Assembly (NCBI GenBank): GCA_044237745.1
Contig: JBIIER010000016.1
Span: 1,053-65,052 of the forward strand
Direction of reading: 5' to 3'
Length of the DNA: 64,000 nucleotides
Source: Pseudobdellovibrionaceae bacterium
GTDB taxonomy: Bacteria > Bdellovibrionota > Bdellovibrionia > Bdellovibrionales > Bdellovibrionaceae
In this document: positions 11,782 to 64,000 of the stretch, piece after piece
How positions within the stretch are numbered: the stretch's first letter is position 1
Layout: the number at the start of each line of letters is the position of its first letter
Translations under genes and position numbers: made by a program
The notes under the pieces: model-generated
What the model was told of the DNA's origin: nothing
The model's database searches: none
Seen by the model: only the letters and a program-made list of their open reading frames with translations

Positions 11782-11892
11782 ATTGTTAAGTAAAAAATCC
11801 TTGTGATTTAAAAGAGAAGACTTAATTAAGAGGCCCTTATCTGACTAAAAATCAGACAGGTGTCTAACAATTTACATTTTAGAGGGCCCACA

Positions 11893-14800
11893 ATGAAGAT
11901 TCTTTTAAATTTAACTCTATCTTTAGTTATTTTTATAAGTATTCAAAATTCTCATGCAAATTCCCATTTGCAATGCCCTCAGGTCTTCAACCGCCCCCTC
12001 AAAAATATCAAAAATCAAAAAACTGAAGTCACGGACCTCTTTACTTTTGGCCAGGCCATGACTGAAGGGATGTTGTTGCATCCCGACCAAGAAGACCTTT
12101 TTGAAATCTACAGAAAGACTTTTTTTGGCGACCCCAAGGTGTCTGTTGACAATAAAACGCTTAATGATGTTTCTGAAATCCTTAGCAAAAACCCAGAACT
12201 TAAAAAAATTCCTTTTAGAGAGTACGAAGTCTCCTCCGTTAAAAAACTCTATTCAGTTCCAGATTCGCTCTCAAAGTATGTCACTTCTCAAATTCAATCT
12301 GCCGGCAATGTGAGAAGCAACCTCCTTCAAATTGAAGCCAATATCGGTTATTGGCGCAAAATTTTAGATTACCAAGAACCGCAAATGCCCGAAGGGCTTG
12401 CAAAAGATCAGCAAAAAGAATGGTCTGCAAAAGCAAAATTTAAATTTGAGAAATATTTAAATAGAATCATTTCTAAAACAAATCGCGGTCTCTTGAGTGA
12501 TTTAAAAAATGAACAGATCGACTATGATAAAAAAGTCATTACACTTTTTAAGACTCTTGATTACCTTTCAAAATGGATGCAAACAAAAAACCGAAATACT
12601 CAACCCATCAGACAAGCCATGGTGGATCTAGTTCATACAGTCGGTTTTGGAAATCAGGCCACTTTGGCTCTTCTTAAAAGTAAAAATGGTCTCGATAAAA
12701 TTGAAGGACTTAAAAAGATTTTGGATGAAAGAGATTCCATCGCTATGGAGCTTGAGTTCCATGGGCACTTTCAAGAATTACAAAAATCTTTAAAGGTAGA
12801 TTTTCCGACGGGTCTTTCAAAAAATGAAAACCCTTCAGTAAATATTCAAAAACTAGAAAAAGAAGTATTGAACAGTCCTTTTACCAGTCTGCCTGTTGAA
12901 ACCTATAGAGTCAGAAGCCTCTCTATTCAAGAAGCCCCTTTTAGATCCTGCTTAGGAGGCTCTGATTGTTCTTCTCGAACTTATTTTAGCAAAGCCTTAG
13001 ATCCAAATTTTAATTATTTTACCATGACTGACAATGCTTCTTATTCAACGGGTCATGTGACTGTAGTTTTAGGAGAGGCCACCAATCCTAAAACCAAACA
13101 TTTAGAACCAGTTGCGTTTGTGGATAAAATTCAAAATATCCCTAATTCACAATTGCCCGTATTTTTTCAGGCCATTGCTTTAAGTCTCAATGAATACGGA
13201 TATAAACTCGGCCTTCCTGAAGATGTAGGAGATCACAATGGACTTTCTAACTTAGAAAACACTCGCGTATTTGTAAAAAATGATGTTCTCCCTCTATTGA
13301 GTCATAAACTCTCTAAGTTTAAACCCCATGCCCATAAATACAATTTTCAGAATAGATACTCTCGAGCCTACAATGACCTCAGCCTTAAAATTTACGAGCC
13401 TGTTTTAATTGATAAAGAAACAGAGATTAAGGTGGGAAGGCATTATAAAACAACTCTTGCTAAAAAAAATCTCGACAAGAATCAATTAATTACTGACTTC
13501 CTCAATCTTAAAGACTCAAAAGAATCTCAAGATGTTTTAAAATATGTTTCTAGCGGCCTGTTTATTGAGTCACTTGAAAAACTCAATTTATACACAACTG
13601 CTGAATACGAAAAAGATTTAGAAAAGATTCTTCAACGCAAAGACATTGATTTTAGCATTAAGAAACAAGCACTTTATGAATCATTTTTTGTAAACCCTTC
13701 GAGCAAAATACTTAAAAAATCTAAAAATATATTCTTAAATAAAATCAGCAGTTTTAATCAGGTTGAAAAACACCAAATAGGCTCTGAAATTAAACAATGG
13801 AGTCAGTCGTCTGATAAAAGAAAACAAATTTTTGCAGATCAGTTGAGAACCTCTTGGAACGTTGCCATTACGAAGGGTGAGCTTGAACAAGTGAAGTCCT
13901 TTATTGATCTTAATTTATTTGATGTGAATTACAAAAATGAAAATGGATTTTCTGGATTTTTAATGGCTGTAGAAGCTGAACAAAAAGCTATTATAGAATT
14001 TTTTATGAACCATCCTCAATTTAACCTCTCTGAAAAAAATGAAAATGGTCATAATCTCATTGAACAAGCTCAACTCATTGGCAAAACAAGTTTAGCAAAT
14101 GAACTTGAAAGCCAACGAAGTGATATCAAAGTTAAAAACTTTAATGTTCAAGATAAAACCACTAAGGGAAGACCCATTTTTAATTTTGTTAAAATCAATC
14201 CTGGACAATATTTTGTAGGCGATCAAAAAAAGGTGGCGGTGACCATTACCAAGCCTTTTGATTTTATGTCGACAATGACATCTCTAAAATTGTGGACAGA
14301 TGTCGTGCAACTGGCAGAACGCCACCTCTCAATTGATTATCAACTTGTTAAAGACCCCTATGCAAACCGTTTTGATGATTTTTGGTTTTCTTCTCACTAT
14401 GATTTAATTGTGTCTCAACATCAAAATAATCAAAAAGGATTGCTCTCCCATATTTTTAATAAATTTTTAAATATTGGAAATAAAACTAATCCAGATATTA
14501 TCAGAAATAACAGTGAAGACTTTGCCGTTGATTGGGTCTCACAAGTAGATATCAGTGATTGGATCAAAGCACTTAACCAGCTTTCTGAACTCAATGACCC
14601 TGTTGTTCAAATTGAGTTAGAAAAACTTTTACCCGGTCATCAGTATGGAGATAAATATGATCTGCCTACAAATGCTCAATGGGAGTATGTTGCTCGCATG
14701 AGAGGTTTAATCGCTGAACATATTTTTAGAGATCATCAAGTCTATCCAATCTATAGTGTGCAAGATCCTAAAAAATACGTTTCTACTATTTTTCCGATGG

Positions 14801-15039
14801 GTACTTTTAAACCTCTATTTATTGAGGGGCAGCCCATCTACGATATGAATTCTGAAGTTTGGGAGTTCATGAAGGACTCTTACAATCAAAACAGACCCCT
14901 TGGTGGAGTGGATCCGGGAATGGCCCATATCATTACTTCAGCCGACTACATTATTCGCAGATCTTCTGAAAGCAGTACAAAGCTTTTCAAAACTCGCGAA
15001 AACAATTTGAGTTTTCGATTGGTACGAAATCCCCGATAA
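11893..15039 (+). CDS. large secreted protein with ankyrin-like repeats and a C-terminal FGE-sulfatase (SUMF1-like, C-type-lectin fold) domain
   Basis: Start moved to the ATG at 11893 (AGAGGG SD; signal peptide MKILLNLTLSLVIFISIQNSHA). ANK-like repeats occur around NENGFSGFLMAVEAEQKAIIEFF / NENGHNLIEQAQLIG. C-terminal blocks FVKINPGQYFVGD, LPTNAQWEYVARM and SFRLVRNP are typical of FGE-sulfatase domains. Confidence 0.6.
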   Translation: MKILLNLTLSLVIFISIQNSHANSHLQCPQVFNRPLKNIKNQKTEVTDLFTFGQAMTEGMLLHPDQEDLFEIYRKTFFGDPKVSVDNKTLNDVSEILSKNPELKKIPFREYEVSSVKKLYSVPDSLSKYVTSQIQSAGNVRSNLLQIEANIGYWRKILDYQEPQMPEGLAKDQQKEWSAKAKFKFEKYLNRIISKTNRGLLSDLKNEQIDYDKKVITLFKTLDYLSKWMQTKNRNTQPIRQAMVDLVHTVGFGNQATLALLKSKNGLDKIEGLKKILDERDSIAMELEFHGHFQELQKSLKVDFPTGLSKNENPSVNIQKLEKEVLNSPFTSLPVETYRVRSLSIQEAPFRSCLGGSDCSSRTYFSKALDPNFNYFTMTDNASYSTGHVTVVLGEATNPKTKHLEPVAFVDKIQNIPNSQLPVFFQAIALSLNEYGYKLGLPEDVGDHNGLSNLENTRVFVKNDVLPLLSHKLSKFKPHAHKYNFQNRYSRAYNDLSLKIYEPVLIDKETEIKVGRHYKTTLAKKNLDKNQLITDFLNLKDSKESQDVLKYVSSGLFIESLEKLNLYTTAEYEKDLEKILQRKDIDFSIKKQALYESFFVNPSSKILKKSKNIFLNKISSFNQVEKHQIGSEIKQWSQSSDKRKQIFADQLRTSWNVAITKGELEQVKSFIDLNLFDVNYKNENGFSGFLMAVEAEQKAIIEFFMNHPQFNLSEKNENGHNLIEQAQLIGKTSLANELESQRSDIKVKNFNVQDKTTKGRPIFNFVKINPGQYFVGDQKKVAVTITKPFDFMSTMTSLKLWTDVVQLAERHLSIDYQLVKDPYANRFDDFWFSSHYDLIVSQHQNNQKGLLSHIFNKFLNIGNKTNPDIIRNNSEDFAVDWVSQVDISDWIKALNQLSELNDPVVQIELEKLLPGHQYGDKYDLPTNAQWEYVARMRGLIAEHIFRDHQVYPIYSVQDPKKYVSTIFPMGTFKPLFIEGQPIYDMNSEVWEFMKDSYNQNRPLGGVDPGMAHIITSADYIIRRSSESSTKLFKTRENNLSFRLVRNPR

Positions 15040-15076: not shown

Positions 15077-16052
15077 CTAGAGGAGTCTGAAAATCACTGA
15101 ACCATTTCCAGAATTTCCACCCGTTGTATTTGATTGATTGGTGCCTCCGTTATAGGAGCCACCTCCACCTCCTCTGTAGCCGGTATTGGTCCAAGAAGCT
15201 CCACCACCGCCTGCATAACCGCCGCCGCCGGGTGAGCTATGTCCACTTGACGCGGAACCACCACCGCCACCAAATCCTCCATTGGCTCCATCTCGACCGA
15301 CTCCTCCCGTGCCACCATTTAAAAAACTCATTCCTCCACCACTTGTTGCAGAAACTCCATCATTGGCATTACTTCCATTGGCACCATTTGAATAAAATCC
15401 TCCGCCGCCCCCAGAGGAACCATAGGTTCCACTTCCTCCTCCGGCCCCAGCAGAACCTCCAGCGCCGTTATCGTACCAAGTACCACTTACGGTTCCTAAC
15501 CCCCCGAGCTGTTTTTCCCGGAACTTCCAATATCTCCATGTGCTGCAGTATAAGTAATGGAATTGTAGGCACCGGCACCACCACCCGCAATTATTACTGG
15601 TCCATAAACATCAGTTGAAACAAAAGTGCCACCACCGGCACCATTATTATAAACAGCTGTTGAAATTCCCATTTGACCGACCATAATTCTCAGAATTTGC
15701 GATTTAGTTAAATTAAACGTACCAACCATGACTGCACCTAATCCACCACCTGCAGCACTTGTTCCCGCACCTGAAGCTCCATAAGCAGTAATTTGATAAC
15801 TGCCAGATACAGGAACAGTCCAAAGCTGAATTCCATTAGTGACGCTATAATAAAGTGGATTATTTAACCATGGATAGGGCTAGCATTATATGAGCTGATC
15901 AGCGTTGCTTGAGAAGGCCCCGTACGTCCTGTTGTTCCTGCTGAAGTAAAAGTAAAAGTTGTAAATGGATAAAGTGGGACATTAGCACCATTACCTGCAT
16001 TTCTCCCAAATCCACCAGAAGAAGCTCCACCTCTTGATCCCATTAATGGCAT
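15077..16052 (-). pseudogene. stand-alone ALK/LTK-type TNF-like + glycine-rich domain (GRD) protein, interrupted by two 1-nt frameshifts
   Basis: Three ORF fragments in three frames (16052..15864, 15863..15496, 15495..15077) join into a ~325-aa product. It contains YPFTTFTFTSAGTTGRTGPSQ, GIQLWTVPVSGSYQITAYGASG, ILRIMVGQMG, GGGTFV, VIIAGGGAG, GGFGGGGG and a terminal GSVIFRLL. AGGAG SD precedes the ATG at 16052. The breaks lie at a TT/AAA run (~15862-15869) and at a C6 tract (15500-15505). Confidence 0.7.
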
Positions 16053-16099: not shown

Positions 16100-17287
16100 T
16101 TACATTGTTCCAATCTCTTCTAAAACCTGCTCGCAATCAGTATCTTTTAAGGGAATTTCAGAGTTGATCAAACTCGCAGTTCCTTTAATTTGATTTTGCA
16201 TTTTAATATCACTCACTGGTTTTTGAAGGACTTCATAAATTTTAGTTCTTTCATTGGGAGAATGATTCATTCCTGTTTCAACCACATTTTGCAATCTATG
16301 GACTCTTTGATAGAGTTCAGGATTTTTTACTTTGAGTTCTGCATATTGATCAAAATATTCATTCACCTTACTCGTTACTTGCCCATGAACTTTTTCAGTC
16401 ATGTGGGATTCATAAAATTTTGAATTATGGCGAGCTGATTGAAGTGGGCTCTCTCCTGCCATCATATTGTAAATAGAACTCGAATAAGAGTAGATATCTT
16501 GTTCGTGAGTCGCAATTGAGGACATATTGACTTCAGGTGAAGCAAAATCTTTAGTCATCCCATTAATATGAGAACCTTTTTTTACCATAAAATCATAATC
16601 AGCTAATTCAAATTCTATATCGTTAGCCGTGATCTCACTGATCCCTTTTCCACTCTGGGTAGAGTAGAGAATATTCTCGGGTTTAATGTCAGAGTGAATG
16701 AGATCATGTTTTTTAAGTGCATCAAGGGTTTGCCCACCATTTTGTGCGAATTTTTCAATGATTCCTAATTTACGTTCAAACTCTTTAGGGTTTTTTAAGG
16801 CTTCTTGAGGATCTAATTTTAAATTTGGTATTAATGAATTTGTAGACCCTTGCGCTAAATTTAAAACCACCACTCGCTCAATCTGAATAGACTCCCCTTT
16901 AACTCCGGTATTGACTGTGCACTTGAGATTCGATCCAAAAATCTTGTTAAAATGGCGAGCATCCGCAGATTTTAAGATGGGTTTTAACAACTTCTCATTA
17001 GCTTCCAATTTACCTTGTAGAGCCGCTAAGGTGCTTTTAAATGCTACCTTTTGAATGGTTCCATCGGGCAATCGAACACTGCCTTGATAAATAGAACTTG
17101 TAGCCCCCTTACCAATCGGCTCGGGATTGAATTCATAAATTTTGAGAGAGTCCGCATCTACATGAGGATTCATCGAAGTGCACCAACCAATGGGTTGATT
17201 TCCCCAAGCTATATTATCTTGCAAAAAAGAAATTAAAGACGCGAAGACAAAAAGTACATAGATGAAAGTTTTAAAATTAAGGAGCAT
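16100..17287 (-). CDS. exported/membrane-anchored eukaryotic-like (Hanks-type) Ser/Thr protein kinase
   Basis: 395 aa with N-terminal hydrophobic segment FIYVLFVFASLISFL. Kinase subdomains: IGKGATSSIYQG (Gly loop), KVAFK (Lys), LIHSDIKPENIL (catalytic loop), LADYDF (DFG position), DFASPE (APE), DIYSYSSSIY. Confidence 0.75.
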   Translation of the reverse strand: MLLNFKTFIYVLFVFASLISFLQDNIAWGNQPIGWCTSMNPHVDADSLKIYEFNPEPIGKGATSSIYQGSVRLPDGTIQKVAFKSTLAALQGKLEANEKLLKPILKSADARHFNKIFGSNLKCTVNTGVKGESIQIERVVVLNLAQGSTNSLIPNLKLDPQEALKNPKEFERKLGIIEKFAQNGGQTLDALKKHDLIHSDIKPENILYSTQSGKGISEITANDIEFELADYDFMVKKGSHINGMTKDFASPEVNMSSIATHEQDIYSYSSSIYNMMAGESPLQSARHNSKFYESHMTEKVHGQVTSKVNEYFDQYAELKVKNPELYQRVHRLQNVVETGMNHSPNERTKIYEVLQKPVSDIKMQNQIKGTASLINSEIPLKDTDCEQVLEEIGTM

Positions 17288-21163: not shown

Positions 21164-22126
21164 TTACACCGCATACTTTATCATAATGATTCCTGATCCA
21201 CCTTTACCGCCACCAGCTGAAGTATAGCCATTTCCATTAGTACCAGAGCCTCCACCACCACCAGTATTAGCTCCACCGGCGCCACCCCAAGTTGGATCTC
21301 CAGATGGCCCTGCAGCACCTGCATTTCTGGCACTTCCACCTCCAGAACTTCCGCCACTCTGGCCAGAACCGCCACCGCCGCCGCCAATTCCACCATTACC
21401 GCCAGCATTACTACAATAACCATCATTACCGCCACCACCAGACCAATAGTAGCCGATACCATCAATACTTAAAGCGATACCTGGGCCGCCATCGCGGCTT
21501 GCATATCCATAACCGTTACCACCGGCACCACCACCGCCACCGCCACGACATGAGCAGCAACCTGCATCATTGGCGCCTCCATTATAACCACCATAGGCGG
21601 TTCCTGTCCAACCTGCTGGCAATGTCATCGATCCCACAGTAGCTCCAGTTCTTGTACTGTAACTATATCCACCAGTATTGGCGACGCCCTGGTTTCGAGA
21701 GGGCACATTTCCAGTGTAACAATGTCCAGCACCACCACCCAAGGCTGTTAAGCCAAAGGCTGTTGTGCTCTCCCCAGGATATCCATCGGCCCAACCAATG
21801 GCTCCAGCACCCCCATTACCCACATAGAGTCCGTATGTTCCAGGCAACATCTGAGCAGAGGCATAGATAATTCCTCCACCGCCGCCGCCACCACCAAGCA
21901 TACCACCGCCACCACCACCGCCAACAAGCATAGCGGTCACAGAACCTTTGCCTGTAAAAGTAATGGAAGCGCTACCCACAGCTAAAAAAGTATGAATTTT
22001 ATAATTGATACCACCAATATTTACAGTTGTGATGGTTCCGCCCGTTCCGACCAATGGGCCCACTCCTGAGTTTCTTTGTCCAAAATTACTTGCAGCAGTC
22101 ACTCCTCGACGACCGACAAATGGCAT
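21164..22126 (-). CDS. glycine-rich domain protein (ALK/LTK-GRD-related, phage-type subfamily)
   Basis: Start moved to the ATG at 22126 (AAGGA SD 7 nt upstream), giving MPFVGRRG.... Motifs: YKIHTFLAVGSASITFTG, AMLVGGGGGGG, many GGxGG runs, CCSCRGGGGGG, terminal GGSGIIMIKYAV. No signal peptide. Confidence 0.7.
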   Translation of the reverse strand: MPFVGRRGVTAASNFGQRNSGVGPLVGTGGTITTVNIGGINYKIHTFLAVGSASITFTGKGSVTAMLVGGGGGGGMLGGGGGGGGIIYASAQMLPGTYGLYVGNGGAGAIGWADGYPGESTTAFGLTALGGGAGHCYTGNVPSRNQGVANTGGYSYSTRTGATVGSMTLPAGWTGTAYGGYNGGANDAGCCSCRGGGGGGAGGNGYGYASRDGGPGIALSIDGIGYYWSGGGGNDGYCSNAGGNGGIGGGGGGSGQSGGSSGGGSARNAGAAGPSGDPTWGGAGGANTGGGGGSGTNGNGYTSAGGGKGGSGIIMIKYAV

Positions 22127-22227
22127 AAGAATTCCTTTCAAGAATTTTAATAGCAATTAAATTTATTTTTAAATTGATTCACAAAAAAGTAAAGCTTCAA
22201 GGATTTTAATATAACAAAGTGGCGGAG

Positions 22228-52346: not shown

Positions 52347-53000
52347 TTAATTTCCTTTAATGAGGATTTGTGGTTTTTTATCGGGATCTAACCATTTAAA
52401 AATCTCTTGAATGGTAGCCTTTGAAACAGCCACACATCCTGATGTCCCATGCTGAGGGGATTGCCAAATATGAAGAAAGATCGCGCTCCCAAATCCCTTG
52501 ATAACTGGGTGGGAGTTATAATCTATGACGAGTCCTAATTCATAGAGATTATCAGACCTTTTCATTTTTTCAAAACTCTTGGCCGTAGTTGGGCCACGAA
52601 CCCAAGTATTGTAATCATCTGAGTCAACATCATCGATGTATTTATCTTCATCGGTCGCCATGATGTAGGGCATTTTGGTCTCTGCCTGAGCGGCGTATCC
52701 CCAACTCGTTGAAAACTCATAAAGACCACTCGGAGTGCGTTTATCGCCCTCGCGTTTTTCTCCTTGGGGAGCAATTCCCTTTAACCCCACAACTGCGGGG
52801 AAGAATTTAATGGGTTGCCATTGGTTTTGGGCGTCTTTTTCATAAAGTGTGAGCGTGGCTTTAATATTTTGCAGGGATTTAACAATGATTAATTGCTGGC
52901 TGGATTCGAAGGAATTTAAATGGGTACTTGCTTGAATCTCAGGGCTTTTAAAAAACACGATCAGCAGGAATAAAAAAATAAATGATTTAATTTTATTCAA
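52347..53000 (-). CDS. L,D-transpeptidase (YkuD) family protein
   Basis: 217 aa with a signal peptide. Catalytic block AIFLHIWQSPQHGTSGCVAV (His ... Gly-Cys). Confidence 0.8.
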   Translation of the reverse strand: MNKIKSFIFLFLLIVFFKSPEIQASTHLNSFESSQQLIIVKSLQNIKATLTLYEKDAQNQWQPIKFFPAVVGLKGIAPQGEKREGDKRTPSGLYEFSTSWGYAAQAETKMPYIMATDEDKYIDDVDSDDYNTWVRGPTTAKSFEKMKRSDNLYELGLVIDYNSHPVIKGFGSAIFLHIWQSPQHGTSGCVAVSKATIQEIFKWLDPDKKPQILIKGN

Positions 53001-53124
53001 AAAAATAAATTGAAAGACATTTTGAAAATTATGTATTTGAGTCTTTGGATTTTTCGTAAGAAGCCTCTTTTAAAATTTCTATTTTAAGTAGAAATTGTAA
53101 AAAAAGCTTTTACCTTTGACCAGT

Positions 53125-53150
53125 CCAGTTCACCCCTTAAGATGAACTGG
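53125..53150 (-). terminator. stem-loop downstream of the fibre/GRD gene (possible terminator)
   Basis: CCAGTTCA (53125-53132) and TGAACTGG (53143-53150) form an 8-bp stem 10 nt after the stop at 53160. On the minus strand a T7 run follows about 18 nt after the stem, which is not ideal. Confidence 0.35.
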
Positions 53151-53159
53151 TCTAGTCAA

Positions 53160-56100
53160 TTATGGATCCACTAAGAATGTGATTGTTACGTATCCGTCAT
53201 TTGGATTTGAACCACCCACATTAGTTTGATTGGATCCGGTATTGTAAGATGAACCTCCACCACCCCATGTGCTGTAAGAACTCCAAGAGCCATTAATAGA
53301 TCCACCAGAATAGCCGCCACCGGCACCAGGATTTCCTAAGGCACCAGGACCGCCACCGCCGAAGCCCCCATTGTGATTTCCACCATAACAACTGGAGATA
53401 TATCCACCATTACCTCCGTTTGAGAATGAAGTTCCTCCTCGAGCCGTATCACAGTGACCTCCACCATTATTACCATTACCAGTTAATCCGCCACCGGCAC
53501 CACCAGTATTACTTCCAATGACATTGCCTCCGGCACCGCCTGAAGCTCCACTCACATTTCCAGCACCGCTGTAATAACCTTGAGAGTTAGTAGTAGTCAC
53601 ACCATCTCCAAATGATGCATCTCTATAGGTCGATGTACCATAAGAAGCAGAAGGAGCTCCTCCTCCTCCACCAGCAACAATAAGTGCATTTGTTCCCGTC
53701 GCGCCGTTGATCACATAGGTTCCTCCACCACCGCCATTTTCATTATAGTGCGGACTCGTATCGGCTTGACCTTTTTGACCCACGAGAATTTGTAAAACAG
53801 TTCCTTGAGTGAGGCTAAAATCACCCGCCATCACGGCACCTGAACCGCCATTGTAATTTAAAGTTCCACCGGCAGCACCTGCTGCAACAATTCGATAGGT
53901 TCCTGTTTTAGGAACGGTCCATTTTTGAATTCCTTGAGAAGACATATTCAGATAGCTCGTATTGGAGGCCCAGGATTGAGAGCTGTAAGCTGATTGGCAA
54001 GTTCCTAAATTTGGCCCTGTATAACCAGTGGCTCCACAAGTTGTAAAAGTAAAAGCATTGAAAGGATAAAGCTGCGGAACAATGCTTCCTGTTTTGGCAA
54101 GAATCATCCAGTTCGCACCATCAGAAACTAAATTTAAATATTGATACTTAGTAGAAAGCACAGCTCCTGTATAATCATCTATTTTTTGCGAACTTGTAGT
54201 AGCAATAGTCACTGTGTTTACGGAGTTATCTATTTTTTTAATACGATACTCACGACCAGAAATCCCCACTGCAGTTGGGAGAGTTAAAGTGATGGAACCA
54301 CTAGATACATTGGCTAATATATTTGTTTGAGAAGCAGTTAATGTTTGCGTGGTTGTCACAGTATTTAATCCCGCTGCAAAGGATCCTGAAACTTGCAAAC
54401 TTGAAGTTGGAGAAGCTGTTCCCACACCCACACTCCCTGCTGTGTAAGAAACATTGCTTCCACTTACAGCCCAAACACCTGTGCTTGGTTGACTCTTCCA
54501 CGTTGTTCCGTCGCTGGTTAACACATTACCAGAGGCGCCAGGAGCTACAGTTTGTACAGCGCTGGTTCCATTACCTAGAATCACACTGTTTGATGCCAAA
54601 CTGGTAGAGCCTGTCCCTCCATTCGCGACTTCAATTTTATTACCATTCCAAGTTCCCGTTGTGATGGTTCCCAATATTGTAAGATTTGTTGATCCCGCTG
54701 TAGGAGAAGCTCCAATATCTGCAGCTGCGGCTCCTGTTTTATTTATTTTAGACCATGATATTGCGGCCGCCGCTGCAATGTCTTCATCGGCCAGAGAAGA
54801 TTTTGCAGCTAGAGTTCCTAAGTTTGGTTTATTAATGAGATCACTATAACTTCCTGAAGTGGCCGCTGTTGATAAACCCGTCACTTGATCAGCTGGTAAA
54901 GAAATATTTTGACAAGAGAACTGATCCGTAATGGAAGACCAAATTAAAGTCTGCGAAGAATTGCAAGTATCCACATTAAATGCTGAAGAGGTCCCTAAAC
55001 TATTTTTAAGATCAGAGAGTTTCATAAACTGAGGCTGCCATCCCATTCCATTTAAAAATCGCAAATACTTTCCATCATCAGTCGCTAATGCCTTACTCAC
55101 ATTCACACCATTGATTTTATCAACAATAGTTTGAGATTGAGTGCCCGAAACATCTCCAACAAGATTTCCGGTAAATGAAGTTGAGGTATTTGCGTTGCCA
55201 GTAATATCTATACCCCACTGGCCACTCGCTGCTGATTGAATTTCTGAAATATTTATTTTTAAAATATTTTCATCTATTTTTAATCCAGATCCAGGCGCGG
55301 CCTTGGCAAATGCCTGAACCGTTCCCGCATCAGGAGTACAAGTCCATACGCCGTTTGTTTTTTTAAGAATTTCACCGTCTGAGCAAGTCGTTGATGCTAT
55401 TTCTCTTAAAGGCTCTGGAACACTTGTTAGTTTTGAATAGTTTAAACTCACAACACTTGAATCAGAAATTGAACTGCTCTTAATATTGGCCCCATTAAAA
55501 TTATTGGCGTCAGACATTTTTAAATATTTATCTGTTGTGCCATTGATGATGGCTAATAAATCAGACAATTTTGTAGCATCCAACTCAGTATTTGTTGAAT
55601 CAACTCCATCAGCTATTCTTAAAAGTCGTTCCTTTGAATAACCACCCACTTGTAAAGATTCAAGTGCCATTGGAACATATTGAATATCTTGCGCTGGCAA
55701 GGGATCGTAATCTGTAAAATTATAATCAGTGTTGTCCTTAAAATAAACATAGAACTTACGTCCCTCTGTTAATGGAGGAGGATTGTTAGTTGATCCATTG
55801 GCACACTCTATTGACTGAGTCGATGTCATAGTTTTGTTCGAAAAAATCTGACCCATGGTTAAACCGGTAGTGTCTGTTCTTGTGAGTGAGTCTTCTTTAA
55901 TTTTAATAGAAAAAACACCGGCTGTATAAGATAAGTCTTTTTCTTGAATGTCTTCAAAAAGTATACAAGAACTTGGCGGCGCACTTTTAATCTGAACCTT
56001 TATGAGCACAGAATTGCTAATTAAAGGTTTACCATCTGGTTTCAGTAATCTTCCGTTATAAGATAAATACTGCATGCTTGGTGGCGCTTCTGCTTGCGCT

Positions 56101-56216
56101 GATAAATTAGAAAAGAAGATGATAGTAAACAAGCAAGTGATCCAAAATAGAATATTGCTTTGTTTTTTTGTTCGAAAATCTTCCACTGATAAATAACCAA
56201 TTGGTCGTTCTCTCAT
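53160..56216 (-). CDS. tail-fibre-like surface protein with C-terminal ALK/LTK-type TNF-like + glycine-rich domain
   Basis: Start set at the ATG at 56216 (AGGAG SD), about 1018 aa, with N-terminal anchor ILFWITCLFTIIFFSNLSAQA. The middle has phage-fibre-type motifs: SGSYSDLINKPNLGTLAA, TGTWNGNKIEVANGGTGSTSL, GNVLTSDGTTWKS, VGVGTASPTSSLQVSG, LTLPTAVGISGREYRIKKIDNS...SDGANWMIL. The last ~304 aa (54074..53160) carry GRD motifs: YPFNAFTFTTCGATGYTGPN, GIQKWTVPKTGTYRIVAAGAAGG, LQILVGQKG, GGGGGTYVI, LIVAGGGGG, GGFGGGGPG, DGYVTITF. Confidence 0.7.
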   Translation of the reverse strand: MRERPIGYLSVEDFRTKKQSNILFWITCLFTIIFFSNLSAQAEAPPSMQYLSYNGRLLKPDGKPLISNSVLIKVQIKSAPPSSCILFEDIQEKDLSYTAGVFSIKIKEDSLTRTDTTGLTMGQIFSNKTMTSTQSIECANGSTNNPPPLTEGRKFYVYFKDNTDYNFTDYDPLPAQDIQYVPMALESLQVGGYSKERLLRIADGVDSTNTELDATKLSDLLAIINGTTDKYLKMSDANNFNGANIKSSSISDSSVVSLNYSKLTSVPEPLREIASTTCSDGEILKKTNGVWTCTPDAGTVQAFAKAAPGSGLKIDENILKINISEIQSAASGQWGIDITGNANTSTSFTGNLVGDVSGTQSQTIVDKINGVNVSKALATDDGKYLRFLNGMGWQPQFMKLSDLKNSLGTSSAFNVDTCNSSQTLIWSSITDQFSCQNISLPADQVTGLSTAATSGSYSDLINKPNLGTLAAKSSLADEDIAAAAAISWSKINKTGAAAADIGASPTAGSTNLTILGTITTGTWNGNKIEVANGGTGSTSLASNSVILGNGTSAVQTVAPGASGNVLTSDGTTWKSQPSTGVWAVSGSNVSYTAGSVGVGTASPTSSLQVSGSFAAGLNTVTTTQTLTASQTNILANVSSGSITLTLPTAVGISGREYRIKKIDNSVNTVTIATTSSQKIDDYTGAVLSTKYQYLNLVSDGANWMILAKTGSIVPQLYPFNAFTFTTCGATGYTGPNLGTCQSAYSSQSWASNTSYLNMSSQGIQKWTVPKTGTYRIVAAGAAGGTLNYNGGSGAVMAGDFSLTQGTVLQILVGQKGQADTSPHYNENGGGGGTYVINGATGTNALIVAGGGGGAPSASYGTSTYRDASFGDGVTTTNSQGYYSGAGNVSGASGGAGGNVIGSNTGGAGGGLTGNGNNGGGHCDTARGGTSFSNGGNGGYISSCYGGNHNGGFGGGGPGALGNPGAGGGYSGGSINGSWSSYSTWGGGGSSYNTGSNQTNVGGSNPNDGYVTITFLVDP

Positions 56217-56606
56217 GGGTTCTCCTAACAAATTACATAAAAATTAATCAACATTAACTCTTCGGAAGATCTAGTTAAAACTTAAACAAAAAATGCTTAA
56301 TTCATGTCTCCTTTTGAGGAAAATAACTTAATTTTTGTTCAATTTGAGACATGCCAAAAAAATTAAAATCTGATGTTTCATATGTAAAAATAAACCCTTT
56401 TTTTCTTGCAAATTGAGGAGCTACTTTAATTGAAAAATGTTTTGTCGAGATTTTTTATAAATAATTTTAAATTCTTAATACTTGAGAATTAATCACCCAG
56501 ATAGACCTCAATCTTTAATCTCAAGAAGATTCCTTCTCACATCTCTCCAAGATACCAACTAGACTTAACAAAGAAAAGAAAAGGGACTTAAAATTGAGGA
56601 GGAGTT

Positions 56607-62954: not shown

Positions 62955-64000
62955 TTACTGACATGAGTATACATGGGCTCCTACGCCTTGATAAGTTGAA
63001 AAACATCCATCATAAACACAACAAGAAGCTTGCGATCCTGAGCAAGAAGCTCCTTTGGAAGGGCTTCCTGAACAAACGGAGGTGCAAGGAGAATTCACTG
63101 GGTCTGCCGGAATACAATTTCCCATAGACCAAGTTTTAGATGTCGTTGTAGTAGTGGTTGTTCCCGTACAAATTTTTCCATCGGTAGATGGTTTTTGACC
63201 TGCAGGACAAGCAGAACATGTTGAATATAAATAGGCTCCTGTAAGTGCTAATTTTTTAGTACTTGCTGCGTAACTACAATCACGTTTTTGAACATTTGCT
63301 GCTAATTCACAATCAGCATCTGTTTTAGCGTAACGAACTCTATAAACCTTGGCTAAGGACTCTCCCATTTTAATTTTTACGGATGTCTTAAGATCTGTAT
63401 AAGTCATACTGCACTCTGCGACTTCACAAATATTTTTTGCATTTAAAAAGAATCCCTCATTACAACTGTATTCACAAGCATTGGCTGTATTACAAGATTT
63501 TTGATGAACTAAAGTCGTTTTAGAAGTTGATTTTACATTTGTATTAAATCCCGGACAAGCTGTTGCGTTCGTGAAAGTTGTCGGTACGGCAGGGCAAACG
63601 TTTGGAACACATTTCTTAGGTATTGATTTATCAAAGGATGCATTGGTTCCACAAGTAGAGCATTTTGCGTCTGTGGCGCCATTGGCACAAACACATTTAT
63701 TTGTAGCTGCATCCATGACAAGTCCAGTAGCGCAAACATTTTGTAGTGGTTTTACACAATACATATGGGATGGATAAACTGGAACACCTTGATAAACATC
63801 GCTTGGCAATTTAAAATCCCAAAAATTTGCACCCTTACTTAATTTCTGTACGTGATCTAAAACAAAAATTCCTTTACCTGTCCATTTAGTTTTGTTGGCT
63901 GTCCATTTTTCGTAGGCACCGACATTTAGGACGACAAAGTTATCAGTCAATTGAGTTCCAACCCACATACCTGTGTAGCCTGCATTATTTTTAAAGATAT
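62955..64000 (-). CDS. Cys-rich secreted protein, 5' end outside the window
   Basis: The reading frame stays open upstream of the listed Met to the window edge. More than 35 Cys in EGF-like spacings and a T7 linker (GTTTTTTTSK). No family recognised. Confidence 0.5.
   Translation of the reverse strand, partial: IFKNNAGYTGMWVGTQLTDNFVVLNVGAYEKWTANKTKWTGKGIFVLDHVQKLSKGANFWDFKLPSDVYQGVPVYPSHMYCVKPLQNVCATGLVMDAATNKCVCANGATDAKCSTCGTNASFDKSIPKKCVPNVCPAVPTTFTNATACPGFNTNVKSTSKTTLVHQKSCNTANACEYSCNEGFFLNAKNICEVAECSMTYTDLKTSVKIKMGESLAKVYRVRYAKTDADCELAANVQKRDCSYAASTKKLALTGAYLYSTCSACPAGQKPSTDGKICTGTTTTTTTSKTWSMGNCIPADPVNSPCTSVCSGSPSKGASCSGSQASCCVYDGCFSTYQGVGAHVYSCQ

What the first reader, a model, noticed from the sequence alone, without database searches (positions are those of the whole stretch)
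53160..56216. Tail-fibre-like surface protein tipped with an ALK/LTK-type polyglycine domain
The ~1018-aa protein combines an N-terminal anchor, about 700 aa rich in motifs common in phage tail fibres (YSDLINKPNLG, ANGGTGSTSL, GNVLTSDGTTWKS, VGVGTASPTSSLQVSG), and a C-terminal ~304-aa GRD (54074-53160). Polyglycine-II sandwich domains are known receptor-binding tips, as in phage S16 gp38, and they form the ligand-binding core of ALK/LTK. Bdellovibrio has recently been reported to use chimeric fibre adhesins with swappable tips for prey recognition. This protein may be such a fibre with a GRD tip.
Basis: partly seen in the sequence, partly recalled or inferred. Interest (0 to 1): 0.7.

Follow-up and report, generated by a model that had tools for sequence, protein, structure and literature searches.

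The report
Predator surface fibre with ALK-type tip
An uncultured Bdellovibrio-like bacterium encodes a phage-tail-fibre-like surface fibre of the known "MAT" family, thought to help predators recognise prey, and its far end carries a glycine-rich domain homologous to the ligand-binding domain of the human ALK/LTK receptors, a tip type not yet reported for these fibres.

Summary
Residues 39-198 match NCBIfam NF053851 "Bdello_MAT_N" above its cut-off (70 vs 60 bits). Residues 716-1018 are an ALK/LTK glycine-rich (TG) domain: Pfam PF12810 scores above its gathering threshold, a family profile hits ALK/LTK structures at E 1e-33, and an AlphaFold model (pLDDT 87) matches only ALK/LTK/SCD-2 among significant PDB hits (E 2e-15, TM up to 0.74). 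It is not detectably related to phage S16 gp38, which is an analogy only. Between shaft and tip lies a T4 gp9/gp10-like β-sandwich that is the terminal domain in phage fibres and other MAT relatives. This distal module (knob plus GRD) is 49% identical to that of another MAT fibre, P0027, whose anchor is only ~21% identical, which indicates module swapping. The host is Bdellovibrio-like (PepN 53-57% identical to named relatives). The published MAT tip lists I could read contain no GRD. Trimer state, surface display and prey binding are inferred, not shown. I rate it a new variant of a known kind, of moderate interest.

The parts
56222..56226 (-). Ribosome-binding site AGGAG, 5 nt upstream of the ATG at 56216
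   Evidence: Read directly from the sequence. It supports the 1018-aa start, which is also the form called in public assemblies.
56091..56216 (-). Sec-type signal peptide, aa 1-42: a basic n-region ending in KK, the hydrophobic stretch ILFWITCLFTIIFF, and a likely cleavage at AQA|EA
   Evidence: Inspection of the translation. No signal-peptide predictor was available, so the cleavage site is inferred.
55623..56102 (-). MAT-family N-terminal β-rich anchor domain (aa 39-198)
   Evidence: NCBIfam NF053851 Bdello_MAT_N, 70 bits against a cut-off of 60, E 2e-19. A local profile built from relatives gives E 1e-69.
54372..55622 (-). Fibre shaft (aa 199-615). It contains two conserved Cys-pair modules (C278/C293 and C418/C435) shared with other MAT fibres, and the phage-like block at aa 528-590.
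   Evidence: 37-45% identity to shaft segments of MAT relatives P0001-P0008. No Pfam, PHROG or PDB sequence match.
54447..54635 (-). Phage-tail-fibre-like block 'ANGGTGSTSL...GNVLTSDGTTWKS' (aa 528-590)
   Evidence: tblastn gives 67% identity to an uncultured Caudoviricetes protein (E 2e-12) and 55% to a protein annotated 'chaperone of endosialidase'.
54087..54371 (-). T4 gp9/gp10-like β-sandwich 'knob' (aa ~616-710). It is the terminal domain in phage fibres and some MAT relatives but is internal here.
   Evidence: 44% identity to the C-terminus of the Thermocrinis virus 'T7 tail fiber protein' and a match to the C-terminus of the Gordonia phage Petra minor tail protein. The domain is C-terminal in 7 of 10 carriers. 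The AF2 core has pLDDT 85-89. Foldseek matches: Solidus gp83 tailspike 3.9e-6, CBA120 TSP4 4e-5, T4 gp10 9e-3, T4 gp9 1e-2.
53163..54071 (-). ALK/LTK-type TG (TNF-like plus glycine-rich) domain, the distal tip (aa 716-1018). The stop codon is at 53160-53162.
   Evidence: PF12810 at 35.2 bits against 24.5. A family profile hits ALK/LTK at E 1e-33 over the full length. AF2 gives pLDDT 87.1 and pTM 0.89. Foldseek against PDB: all 21 significant hits are ALK/LTK/SCD-2, E 2e-15, TM 0.65-0.74.
53550..53639 (-). Most variable, indel-rich segment of the GRD (aa 860-889). It is a candidate specificity loop region.
   Evidence: Column entropy is 2.5-2.9 bits here against 0.8-1.3 in the glycine scaffold blocks. 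The same blocks have the lowest model confidence, pLDDT about 65. A role in binding is inferred.

Best explanation
This gene encodes an NS74-class member of the mosaic adhesive trimer (MAT) fibre family in an uncultured Bdellovibrio-like bacterium.

Shown:
- The protein has a signal peptide followed directly by the family's conserved N-terminal domain.
- A ~400-aa shaft is built from modules shared with other MAT fibres and with phage tail fibres.
- A T4 gp9/gp10-like β-sandwich follows the shaft.
- After a linker of about 5 residues comes an ALK/LTK-type TNF-like plus glycine-rich (TG/GRD) domain at the extreme C-terminus.
- The distal module (knob plus GRD) is shared at 49% identity with a second MAT fibre (P0027) whose anchor is only ~21% identical. 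Each sub-module also occurs on its own in phage proteins.

Inferred:
- The protein is exported and held on the cell surface by the MAT_N domain.
- It trimerises along the shaft and the gp9/gp10-like knob, and so presents three GRD heads about 1000 residues away from the cell.
- Each GRD binds a prey-surface epitope. A rigid polyglycine-II/TNF-like scaffold would display variable segments (aa ~860-889, 920-929, 940-949) that set specificity.
- The tip was acquired by module exchange, as proposed for MAT tip swapping.
For: MAT membership: NF053851 scores 70 bits against 60, the signal peptide is followed directly by the domain, and the nearest relatives are MAT_N proteins from Bdellovibrio spp. 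with other tips.

Host: the named PepN relatives are all Bdellovibrio, Pseudobdellovibrionaceae or Bdellovibrionaceae at 53-57% identity.

Tip: PF12810, profile E 1e-33 against ALK/LTK, a confident model and an exclusive ALK/LTK fold match.

Knob. To my knowledge all of the matched phage domains sit in trimeric tail proteins.

Mosaicism: P0027 is 49% identical over aa 582-1015 but ~21% identical over the anchor. P0027 lies next to a second MAT gene with a different tip.

Extracellular use of GRDs: partner domains are T9SS sorting tails, Ig, PKD, TIG, fn3 and EGF, and 70 of 149 relatives carry the GRD at the C-terminus. Viral hits include virion structural, tail-collar and minor-tail proteins.

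Other: all ten mature-chain cysteines fall into five closely spaced pairs, consistent with an extracytoplasmic protein. The family shows a conserved glycine scaffold with variable inter-run segments. No phage genes flank the gene.
Against: - No multimer model could be run, so trimerisation is inferred from family membership and from the knob's structural relatives.
- No experiment shows surface display or prey binding, and the organism is uncultured, so its predatory lifestyle is itself inferred from relatedness.
- Only the best of five AF2 models of the knob is confident (71.8 against 48-59), and Pfam PF07880 does not hit the target itself.
- The ALK GRD is not known to act as a trimer.
- No function is established for any bacterial or phage GRD.
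Confidence: 0.62

Rival explanations
1. It is a MAT-like surface fibre but is not used for prey recognition. Instead it is a general adhesin for surfaces, biofilm, self-recognition or attachment to particles.
For: Caulton et al. list MAT-like proteins in non-predators (Table S3). GRDs occur in thousands of proteins from many bacteria, together with generic adhesin modules. The host's lifestyle is unknown, and its PepN is only 53-57% identical to that of named predators.
Against: The curated Bdello_MAT_N model is matched above its cut-off, and every named relative comes from Bdellovibrio. In B. bacteriovorus these fibres are surface displayed, and one binds prey glycans (PMC10769870).
Confidence: 0.2
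2. The receptor-binding element is the gp9/gp10-like knob, which is the terminal domain elsewhere. The GRD would then be an accessory: a cap, a stabiliser, a second low-affinity binder, or a module with a non-adhesive activity.
For: The knob is the C-terminal domain in phage tail fibre and minor tail proteins and in MAT relative P0004. In P0042 and P0102 the order is reversed, with the GRD upstream and the knob last. No ligand is known for any prokaryotic GRD.
Against: The GRD is C-terminal in 70 of 149 relatives. In ALK/LTK it is the ligand-binding unit. In the matched CBA120 TSP4 and T4 gp9/gp10 structures the homologous domains serve, to my knowledge, as connectors or docking modules and not as receptor binders. 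The knob-plus-GRD arrangement is conserved in P0027.
Confidence: 0.13
3. It is a remnant of a prophage tail-fibre gene and not a cellular fibre.
For: Shaft blocks, knob and GRD all have phage counterparts.
Against: The gene has a signal peptide and a cellular MAT_N anchor, which is absent from all viral loci examined. Its neighbours are housekeeping genes: acetyl-CoA synthetase, PDH E1/E2, a YkuD transpeptidase and an amino-acid permease, with no phage genes. The ORF is intact and identical in four assemblies.
Confidence: 0.03
4. The C-terminus is only low-complexity glycine-rich sequence, comparable to PE-PGRS proteins or a collagen-like spacer, and the ALK match is compositional.
For: Glycine is 27% of aa 716-1018. 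HMMER reports high bias in the glycine-rich half.
Against: The strongest alignment covers the non-glycine TNF-like part, aa 721-819, with low bias and the conserved C-x12-C pair. The profile match is E 1e-33 over the whole domain. The model has pLDDT 87 and pTM 0.89, and its significant fold matches are exclusively ALK/LTK with TM 0.65-0.74.
Confidence: 0.02

Closest known systems
Mosaic adhesive trimer (MAT) fibres of Bdellovibrio bacteriovorus HD100, NS74 subgroup (e.g. Bd2133, Bd1334, Bd2439, Bd2734, Bd2740; Caulton et al. 2024, PMC10769870)
   Same: A signal peptide followed directly by the conserved N-terminal β-rich domain (NF053851 above cut-off). About 1000 aa long. Phage-fibre-like shaft. 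A variable C-terminal tip with no S74 chaperone. Mosaic relationships between paralogues and orthologues. A Bdellovibrio-like host.
   Different: The tip fold (ALK/LTK TG/GRD) is not among the tips reported: S74, novel β-sandwiches, TNF-like, C-type lectin, FGE, β-helix, collagen-like, invasin/intimin. It has a two-tier distal end, a gp9/gp10-like knob followed by the GRD. Sequence identity to named Bdellovibrio MATs is only 30-45% over parts of the protein. The host lies outside the cultured genera.
Ligand-binding TG (TNF-like plus glycine-rich) domain of metazoan ALK/LTK receptor tyrosine kinases (PDB 7NX1, 7N00, 7LS0, 7MZY; Pfam PF12810)
   Same: Homologous domain: profile E 1e-33, 25-30% identity, TM 0.65-0.74, the conserved N-terminal 'FTTCGxxGxxGPxxxxC' disulphide motif and matching glycine runs. 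Extracellular in both cases.
   Different: No EGF-like domain, transmembrane helix or kinase follows it. It sits at the end of a fibre and not next to a membrane. The ALKAL cytokine ligands do not exist in bacteria, so the ligand must differ. It would be presented in three copies if the fibre is trimeric.
Phage S16/T2-type gp38 adhesin (polyglycine-II sandwich, PDB 6F45)
   Same: Functional analogy. Both are glycine-rich PGII-type domains at the distal end of a fibre, with a conserved glycine scaffold and variable segments between the runs (gp38 description in PMC6851490).
   Different: No detectable sequence, profile or listed fold similarity. gp38 is a separate protein, one monomer capping a gp37 trimer, with a 73-residue PGII sandwich emerging from a β-helix. 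This tip is about 300 aa, has a TNF-like core and is fused in cis to each chain.
T4 gp9/gp10-like domains (Pfam PF07880; XD domains of CBA120 TSP4, PDB 7REJ; T4 gp10 2FL8, gp9 1QEX)
   Same: The knob at aa ~616-710 has the same β-sandwich fold (Foldseek E 4e-6 to 1e-2, rmsd 2.2-3 Å over ~100 residues). Relative P0004 carries a precomputed PF07880 hit.
   Different: In T4 and CBA120 these domains are, to my knowledge, connectors near the baseplate or at branch points. Here, and in several phage and Elusimicrobia proteins, the domain lies at or near the distal end. Pfam does not hit the target itself.
P0007, a Bdellovibrio sp. MAT fibre with a Gly_rich_2 (PF21722) tip
   Same: A MAT_N anchor (105 bits) plus a glycine-rich C-terminal domain. 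The shaft is 45% identical over 29% of the target's aa 1-715.
   Different: Its tip belongs to a different Pfam glycine-rich family and not to the ALK/LTK type. UniRef names it 'glycine-rich domain-containing protein', but no paper I found describes it.

Membership tests
MAT (mosaic adhesive trimer) fibre family | Conserved ~130-aa β-rich N-terminal domain immediately after the signal peptide | tested here: met
   NF053851 Bdello_MAT_N matches aa 39-198 at 70 bits against a cut-off of 60. The signal peptide at aa ~1-42 was identified by inspection.
MAT (mosaic adhesive trimer) fibre family | Long fibre protein with a conserved proximal end and a diversified, exchangeable distal tip (mosaicism) | tested here: met
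   P0001 shares the proximal 61% of aa 1-715 at 42% identity but has another tip. P0027 shares the distal 440 aa at 49% identity but has a divergent anchor.
MAT (mosaic adhesive trimer) fibre family | Homotrimeric, intertwined fibre | not testable with these tools
   Only monomer prediction was available. Support is indirect: the knob's structural relatives are, to my knowledge, all trimeric phage tail proteins.
MAT (mosaic adhesive trimer) fibre family | Displayed on the predator surface or relocated during prey invasion | not testable with these tools
   Requires microscopy, and the organism is uncultured.
MAT (mosaic adhesive trimer) fibre family | S74 intramolecular chaperone/peptidase at the C-terminus (defines the S74 subgroup only) | tested here: not met
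   No Peptidase_S74 hit at E<=1. The protein therefore belongs to the NS74 subgroup. This does not exclude family membership, since 8 of 21 HD100 MATs lack S74.
ALK/LTK glycine-rich (TG) domain, Pfam PF12810 | Score above the Pfam gathering threshold | tested here: met
   35.2 bits against 24.5. Also precomputed for the identical database protein.
ALK/LTK glycine-rich (TG) domain, Pfam PF12810 | TNF-like β-sandwich plus glycine-rich subdomain fold | tested here: met
   AF2 pLDDT 87.1 and pTM 0.89. Foldseek: 21 of 21 significant PDB hits are ALK/LTK/SCD-2, aligned over 336-366 columns, with TM up to 0.74.
ALK/LTK glycine-rich (TG) domain, Pfam PF12810 | Lattice of polyglycine-II helices formed by the glycine runs | tested here: inconclusive
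Model residues 190-295 are confident (pLDDT 83-97) yet almost free of α or β assignments, and they align with the ALK glycine-rich part. Both observations are compatible with PGII helices.
ALK-family receptor tyrosine kinases | GRD followed by an EGF-like domain, a transmembrane helix and a tyrosine kinase | tested here: not met
   The protein ends with the GRD. It is not a receptor kinase; only the domain is shared.
gp38-type phage adhesins (S16/T2) | Sequence or fold similarity to the gp38 PGII sandwich (PDB 6F45) | tested here: not met
   Absent from phmmer at E<=1, from the profile search at E<=10, and from the 21 significant and 50 listed Foldseek hits.
gp38-type phage adhesins (S16/T2) | A separate monomeric protein that caps a trimeric fibre through an N-terminal helical attachment domain | tested here: not met
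   The GRD is fused in cis after a ~5-residue linker. gp38 architecture is taken from PMC6851490.
T4 gp9/gp10-like domain (PF07880) | Pfam match, or the same β-sandwich fold | tested here: inconclusive
   No Pfam hit on the target at E<=1. The fold match has E 4e-6 to 1e-2, but it rests on one confident model out of five. Relative P0004 has a precomputed PF07880 hit.

The most novel reading that the evidence does not exclude
The ALK/LTK ligand-binding GRD may be, in origin, a prokaryotic and phage receptor-binding head that is used widely at the ends of fibres and giant adhesins. This search found 5194 clusters at E<=1e-3. The metazoan ALK/LTK ectodomain would then descend from such a module by horizontal transfer. 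On this reading, predator MAT fibres like this one are the first setting in which the ancestral, non-cytokine binding mode of the domain could be worked out, and they define a new class of swappable prey-recognition tip. A second glycine-rich class, Gly_rich_2, is used in the same way in P0007.
Probability: 0.2. Interest if true: 0.75.

Novelty: new variant of a known kind. Interest (0 to 1): 0.48.

Why it matters
MAT fibres are the current best candidates for how Bdellovibrio-like predators recognise very diverse prey, and their tip repertoire sets what can be recognised. This protein adds a tip class that is absent from the published catalogue. It also shows a composite distal end (phage gp9/gp10-like knob plus GRD) moving as one unit between fibres with very different anchors.

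Separately, it gives a concrete biological setting, the end of an adhesive fibre, for the large and uncharacterised bacterial and phage branch of the ALK/LTK GRD family. The structure of that domain was solved only in 2021, and its non-metazoan relatives have no known function. A recombinant tip would be a tractable way to learn what a prokaryotic GRD binds.

Tried and rejected
1. The full-length and aa 1-715 homologue searches were swamped: only 8000 word-sharing candidates were scored, giving 11 and 10 hits. The exhaustive HMMER search with the tip alone was far more informative.
2. The genome-contig scan did not find the source genome. It returned only Elusimicrobia proteins that share the knob. 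The organism was therefore placed by PepN instead.
3. phmmer of the shaft (aa 43-715) against PDB found nothing. PHROGs and Pfam found nothing for the shaft either.
It was rerun with six rows only, which probably explains the modest confidence.
6. tblastn of the tip against cultured phage genomes gave only four partial hits, because the low-complexity filter truncates the glycine-rich half.
7. The De Munck et al. ALK paper was not held. ALK domain facts come from PMC10605310 and PMC13243192.
8. Rejected readings: prophage remnant (no phage neighbours, cellular anchor), compositional artefact and gp38 homology.
9. No other MAT_N gene exists in the window.
Full report
**Observation.** The window holds an ORF at 53160..56231 on the minus strand. 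The ATG at 56216 is preceded by AGGAG with a 5-nt spacer and gives 1018 aa. Gene callers chose this form for the identical protein on at least 16 metagenome contigs from JGI, ENA, NCBI and Logan, where it is named only "hypothetical protein". The gene is nucleotide-identical in four of those assemblies (0 of 3057 mismatches). The stated GRD span 54074-53160 corresponds to aa 715-1018, and the domain begins at LYPF, aa 716. The local rise in G+C and the negative GC skew over 53000-54500 are what a run of GGN codons on the minus strand would produce.

**Domain anatomy.**
- aa 1-42 look like a Sec signal peptide: a KK n-region, a hydrophobic core and a likely AQA|EA cleavage site. This is by inspection only.
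- aa 39-198 match NCBIfam NF053851 [quoted passage not shown] at 70 bits against a cut-off of 60.
- aa ~199-615 have no Pfam, PHROG or PDB sequence match. They are 37-45% identical to shaft segments of other MAT_N-bearing proteins, several from Bdellovibrio spp.. They include two conserved Cys-pair modules.
- Part of this shaft, aa 528-590, is 55-67% identical to uncultured phage proteins, one of them annotated "chaperone of endosialidase".
- aa 716-1018 are the GRD.

**The small β-domain.** It is 44% identical to the last ~100 residues of a Thermocrinis virus "T7 tail fiber protein". It also matches the C-terminal end of the Gordonia phage Petra minor tail protein. Among the sequences in hand it is C-terminal in seven carriers and internal only in the target, P0027 and P0288. 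The best AF2 model has a core at pLDDT 85-89, although the other four models are weaker. Foldseek matches it to phage tail modules: Acinetobacter phage Solidus gp83 (3.9e-6), CBA120 TSP4 residues 1-335 (4e-5, rmsd 2.6 Å), a Klebsiella phage baseplate protein, and T4 gp10 and gp9 (about 1e-2). This agrees with the precomputed PF07880 label on relative P0004. To my knowledge all of these are trimeric tail proteins, which is indirect support for a trimeric fibre.

**The tip.**
- Pfam PF12810 (ALK_LTK_GRD) scores 35.2 bits against a gathering threshold of 24.5.
- phmmer finds LTK and ALK chains at E 6e-10 to 3e-8. The best segment lies in the non-glycine TNF-like part and includes the conserved C-x12-C motif.
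- A profile of 25 bacterial relatives hits ALK/LTK at E ~1e-33 across the whole domain.
- An AF2 model built on that alignment has pLDDT 87.1 and pTM 0.89.
- All 21 significant PDB fold matches are ALK, LTK or C. elegans SCD-2 (E down to 2e-15, TM 0.65-0.74, about 340-360 aligned columns). TNF-α appears only as a weak echo of the TNF-like core.
- Phage S16 gp38 does not appear in the sequence search, in the profile search at E<=10, or in the listed fold matches.

The tip is therefore homologous to the ALK/LTK TG domain and only analogous to gp38. gp38 is a separate monomer that caps a gp37 trimer and carries a 73-residue PGII sandwich (PMC6851490). I could not measure PGII geometry directly. 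The glycine-rich half of the model is confident yet nearly free of α or β assignments, which is compatible with PGII helices.

**How common the domain is, and in what company.** An exhaustive HMMER search with the tip found 5194 50%-identity clusters at E<=1e-3 and 337 at E<=1e-30. Many are giant multi-GRD proteins. In 70 of the 149 best hits the GRD is C-terminal. Partner domains are extracellular modules: T9SS sorting tails, Ig-like, PKD, TIG, fn3, Big_2 and EGF. The viral structure library gives 56 matches at E<=1e-3, including cyanophage virion structural, tail-collar and minor-tail proteins. Among the 150 best relatives only P0027 clearly combines MAT_N (109 bits) with a GRD. P0057 and P0035 do so weakly, at 28 and 19 bits. 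A different glycine-rich family, PF21722, forms the tip of Bdellovibrio MAT P0007.

**Mosaicism.** P0001 shares the proximal part (42% identity over 61% of aa 1-715) but ends in a different tip. P0027 shares the distal 440 aa colinearly at 49% identity (collar, knob, GRD), while its anchor is ~21% identical. On P0027's contig a second MAT gene with a Phage_phiTE_241_C tip lies 500 bp downstream, in ordinary chromosomal context. In viral contigs the knob and the GRD occur separately and never with MAT_N. This is the conserved-anchor, swapped-tip pattern described for MATs (PMC10769870).

**Host and context.** The named PepN relatives from the same window are all Bdellovibrio, Pseudobdellovibrionaceae or Bdellovibrionaceae, at a uniform 53-57% identity; the closest hit is unnamed at 60%. 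The window G+C is 37.9%. The host is therefore a Bdellovibrio-like lineage outside the cultured genera. Its predatory habit is inferred. The neighbouring genes are housekeeping (acetyl-CoA synthetase, PDH E1/E2, amino-acid permease, a secreted YkuD L,D-transpeptidase), with no phage genes, so a prophage origin is unlikely.

**Comparison with what is known.** Caulton et al. (2024) defined MATs in B. bacteriovorus HD100: 21 members, 13 with S74 and 8 without. The tips they describe or list are S74, two new β-sandwiches, TNF-like, C-type lectin, FGE, β-helix, collagen-like and invasin/intimin. Neither the main text nor the held supplements mention glycine-rich, ALK or gp38. Later MAT-citing papers in the library do not contain "glycine-rich", and the 2026 Peredibacter survey does not classify tips. 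I found no paper on ALK-type GRDs in bacteria or phages. Both halves of this protein are recognised by curated models, so automated annotation could label them. The combination and the two-tier tip are, as far as I could find, undescribed.

**Mechanism.**
- *Shown:* the domain order, the homologies and the mosaic relationships.
- *Inferred:* export; anchoring by MAT_N; trimerisation along the shaft and knob; presentation of three GRD heads; and binding of a prey-surface epitope through variable segments set in a conserved glycine scaffold. Entropy is 2.5-2.9 bits at aa 860-889, 920-929 and 940-949, against 0.8-1.3 bits in the scaffold blocks.
- *Main rivals:* a non-predatory adhesive role, and a model in which the knob is the real binder and the GRD is an accessory.

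**Verdict.** This is a new variant of a known kind. It is of moderate interest for predator biology, because it adds a tip class and gives direct evidence of distal-module exchange. It is also of interest for the unexplored prokaryotic branch of the ALK/LTK GRD family.

Noticed in passing
window 15077-16052 (-) and 16100-17287 (-): A second ALK/LTK-type GRD coding region of about 325 aa is split over three reading frames (pieces at 15864-16052, 15496-15729 and 15077-15331). The same fragmentation appears in four independent Logan assemblies, so it is a genuinely decayed gene and not an assembly error. It lies directly downstream of a 395-aa protein with an N-terminal hydrophobic segment and a Ser/Thr/Tyr-kinase domain (Pfam Pkinase). 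The kinase-next-to-GRD arrangement echoes ALK..
   Followed up: partly
window 21164-22156 (-): A 330-aa protein matches the other glycine-rich family, PF21722 Gly_rich_2, at 27.5 bits against 24.3. This is the same family that forms the tip of Bdellovibrio MAT fibre P0007. The window therefore holds three glycine-rich-domain genes.
   Followed up: no
window 52347-53000 (-): A 217-aa YkuD-type L,D-transpeptidase with a signal-peptide-like N-terminus lies 160 bp downstream of the fibre gene on the same strand, in all assemblies seen. To my knowledge B. bacteriovorus uses L,D-transpeptidases to remodel prey cell walls. Co-transcription was not tested.
   Followed up: no
window 62955-64000 (-); L003 1-3262: The ORF at the right edge of the window is the C-terminal end of a 5102-aa gene product on the longer JGI contig. 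That product has no Pfam hit on record.
   Followed up: no
window 11860-15039 (+): A 1059-aa protein with a signal-peptide-like N-terminus has a sub-threshold FGE-sulfatase-like C-terminal domain (21.2 bits against 23.3) and no MAT_N. FGE is one of the tip folds listed for MAT fibres in another Bdellovibrio.
   Followed up: no
L013 8001-15173: The contig of relative P0027 (G+C 44%) carries two MAT_N genes separated by a 143-aa ORF. One is GRD-tipped (1069 aa) and the other has a Phage_phiTE_241_C tip (1158 aa). This is a small fibre-gene cluster in chromosomal context.
   Followed up: partly
L014 1-7736: Next to P0001, the closest relative of the target's proximal half (contig G+C 39%, from the same SRR274xxxxx run series as assemblies of the window organism), lie 657-aa and 1965-aa proteins with weak Fibrinogen_C hits. 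The local MAT_N profile did not match them, so they are not detectable MAT fibres.
   Followed up: no
L018 1591-12006; P0042; P0102: A jumbo-phage-sized viral contig (182 kb) encodes a 3472-aa protein with at least four GRD copies. In cellular proteins P0042 and P0102 the domain order is reversed, with GRDs upstream and the gp9/gp10-like knob at the C-terminus.
   Followed up: no
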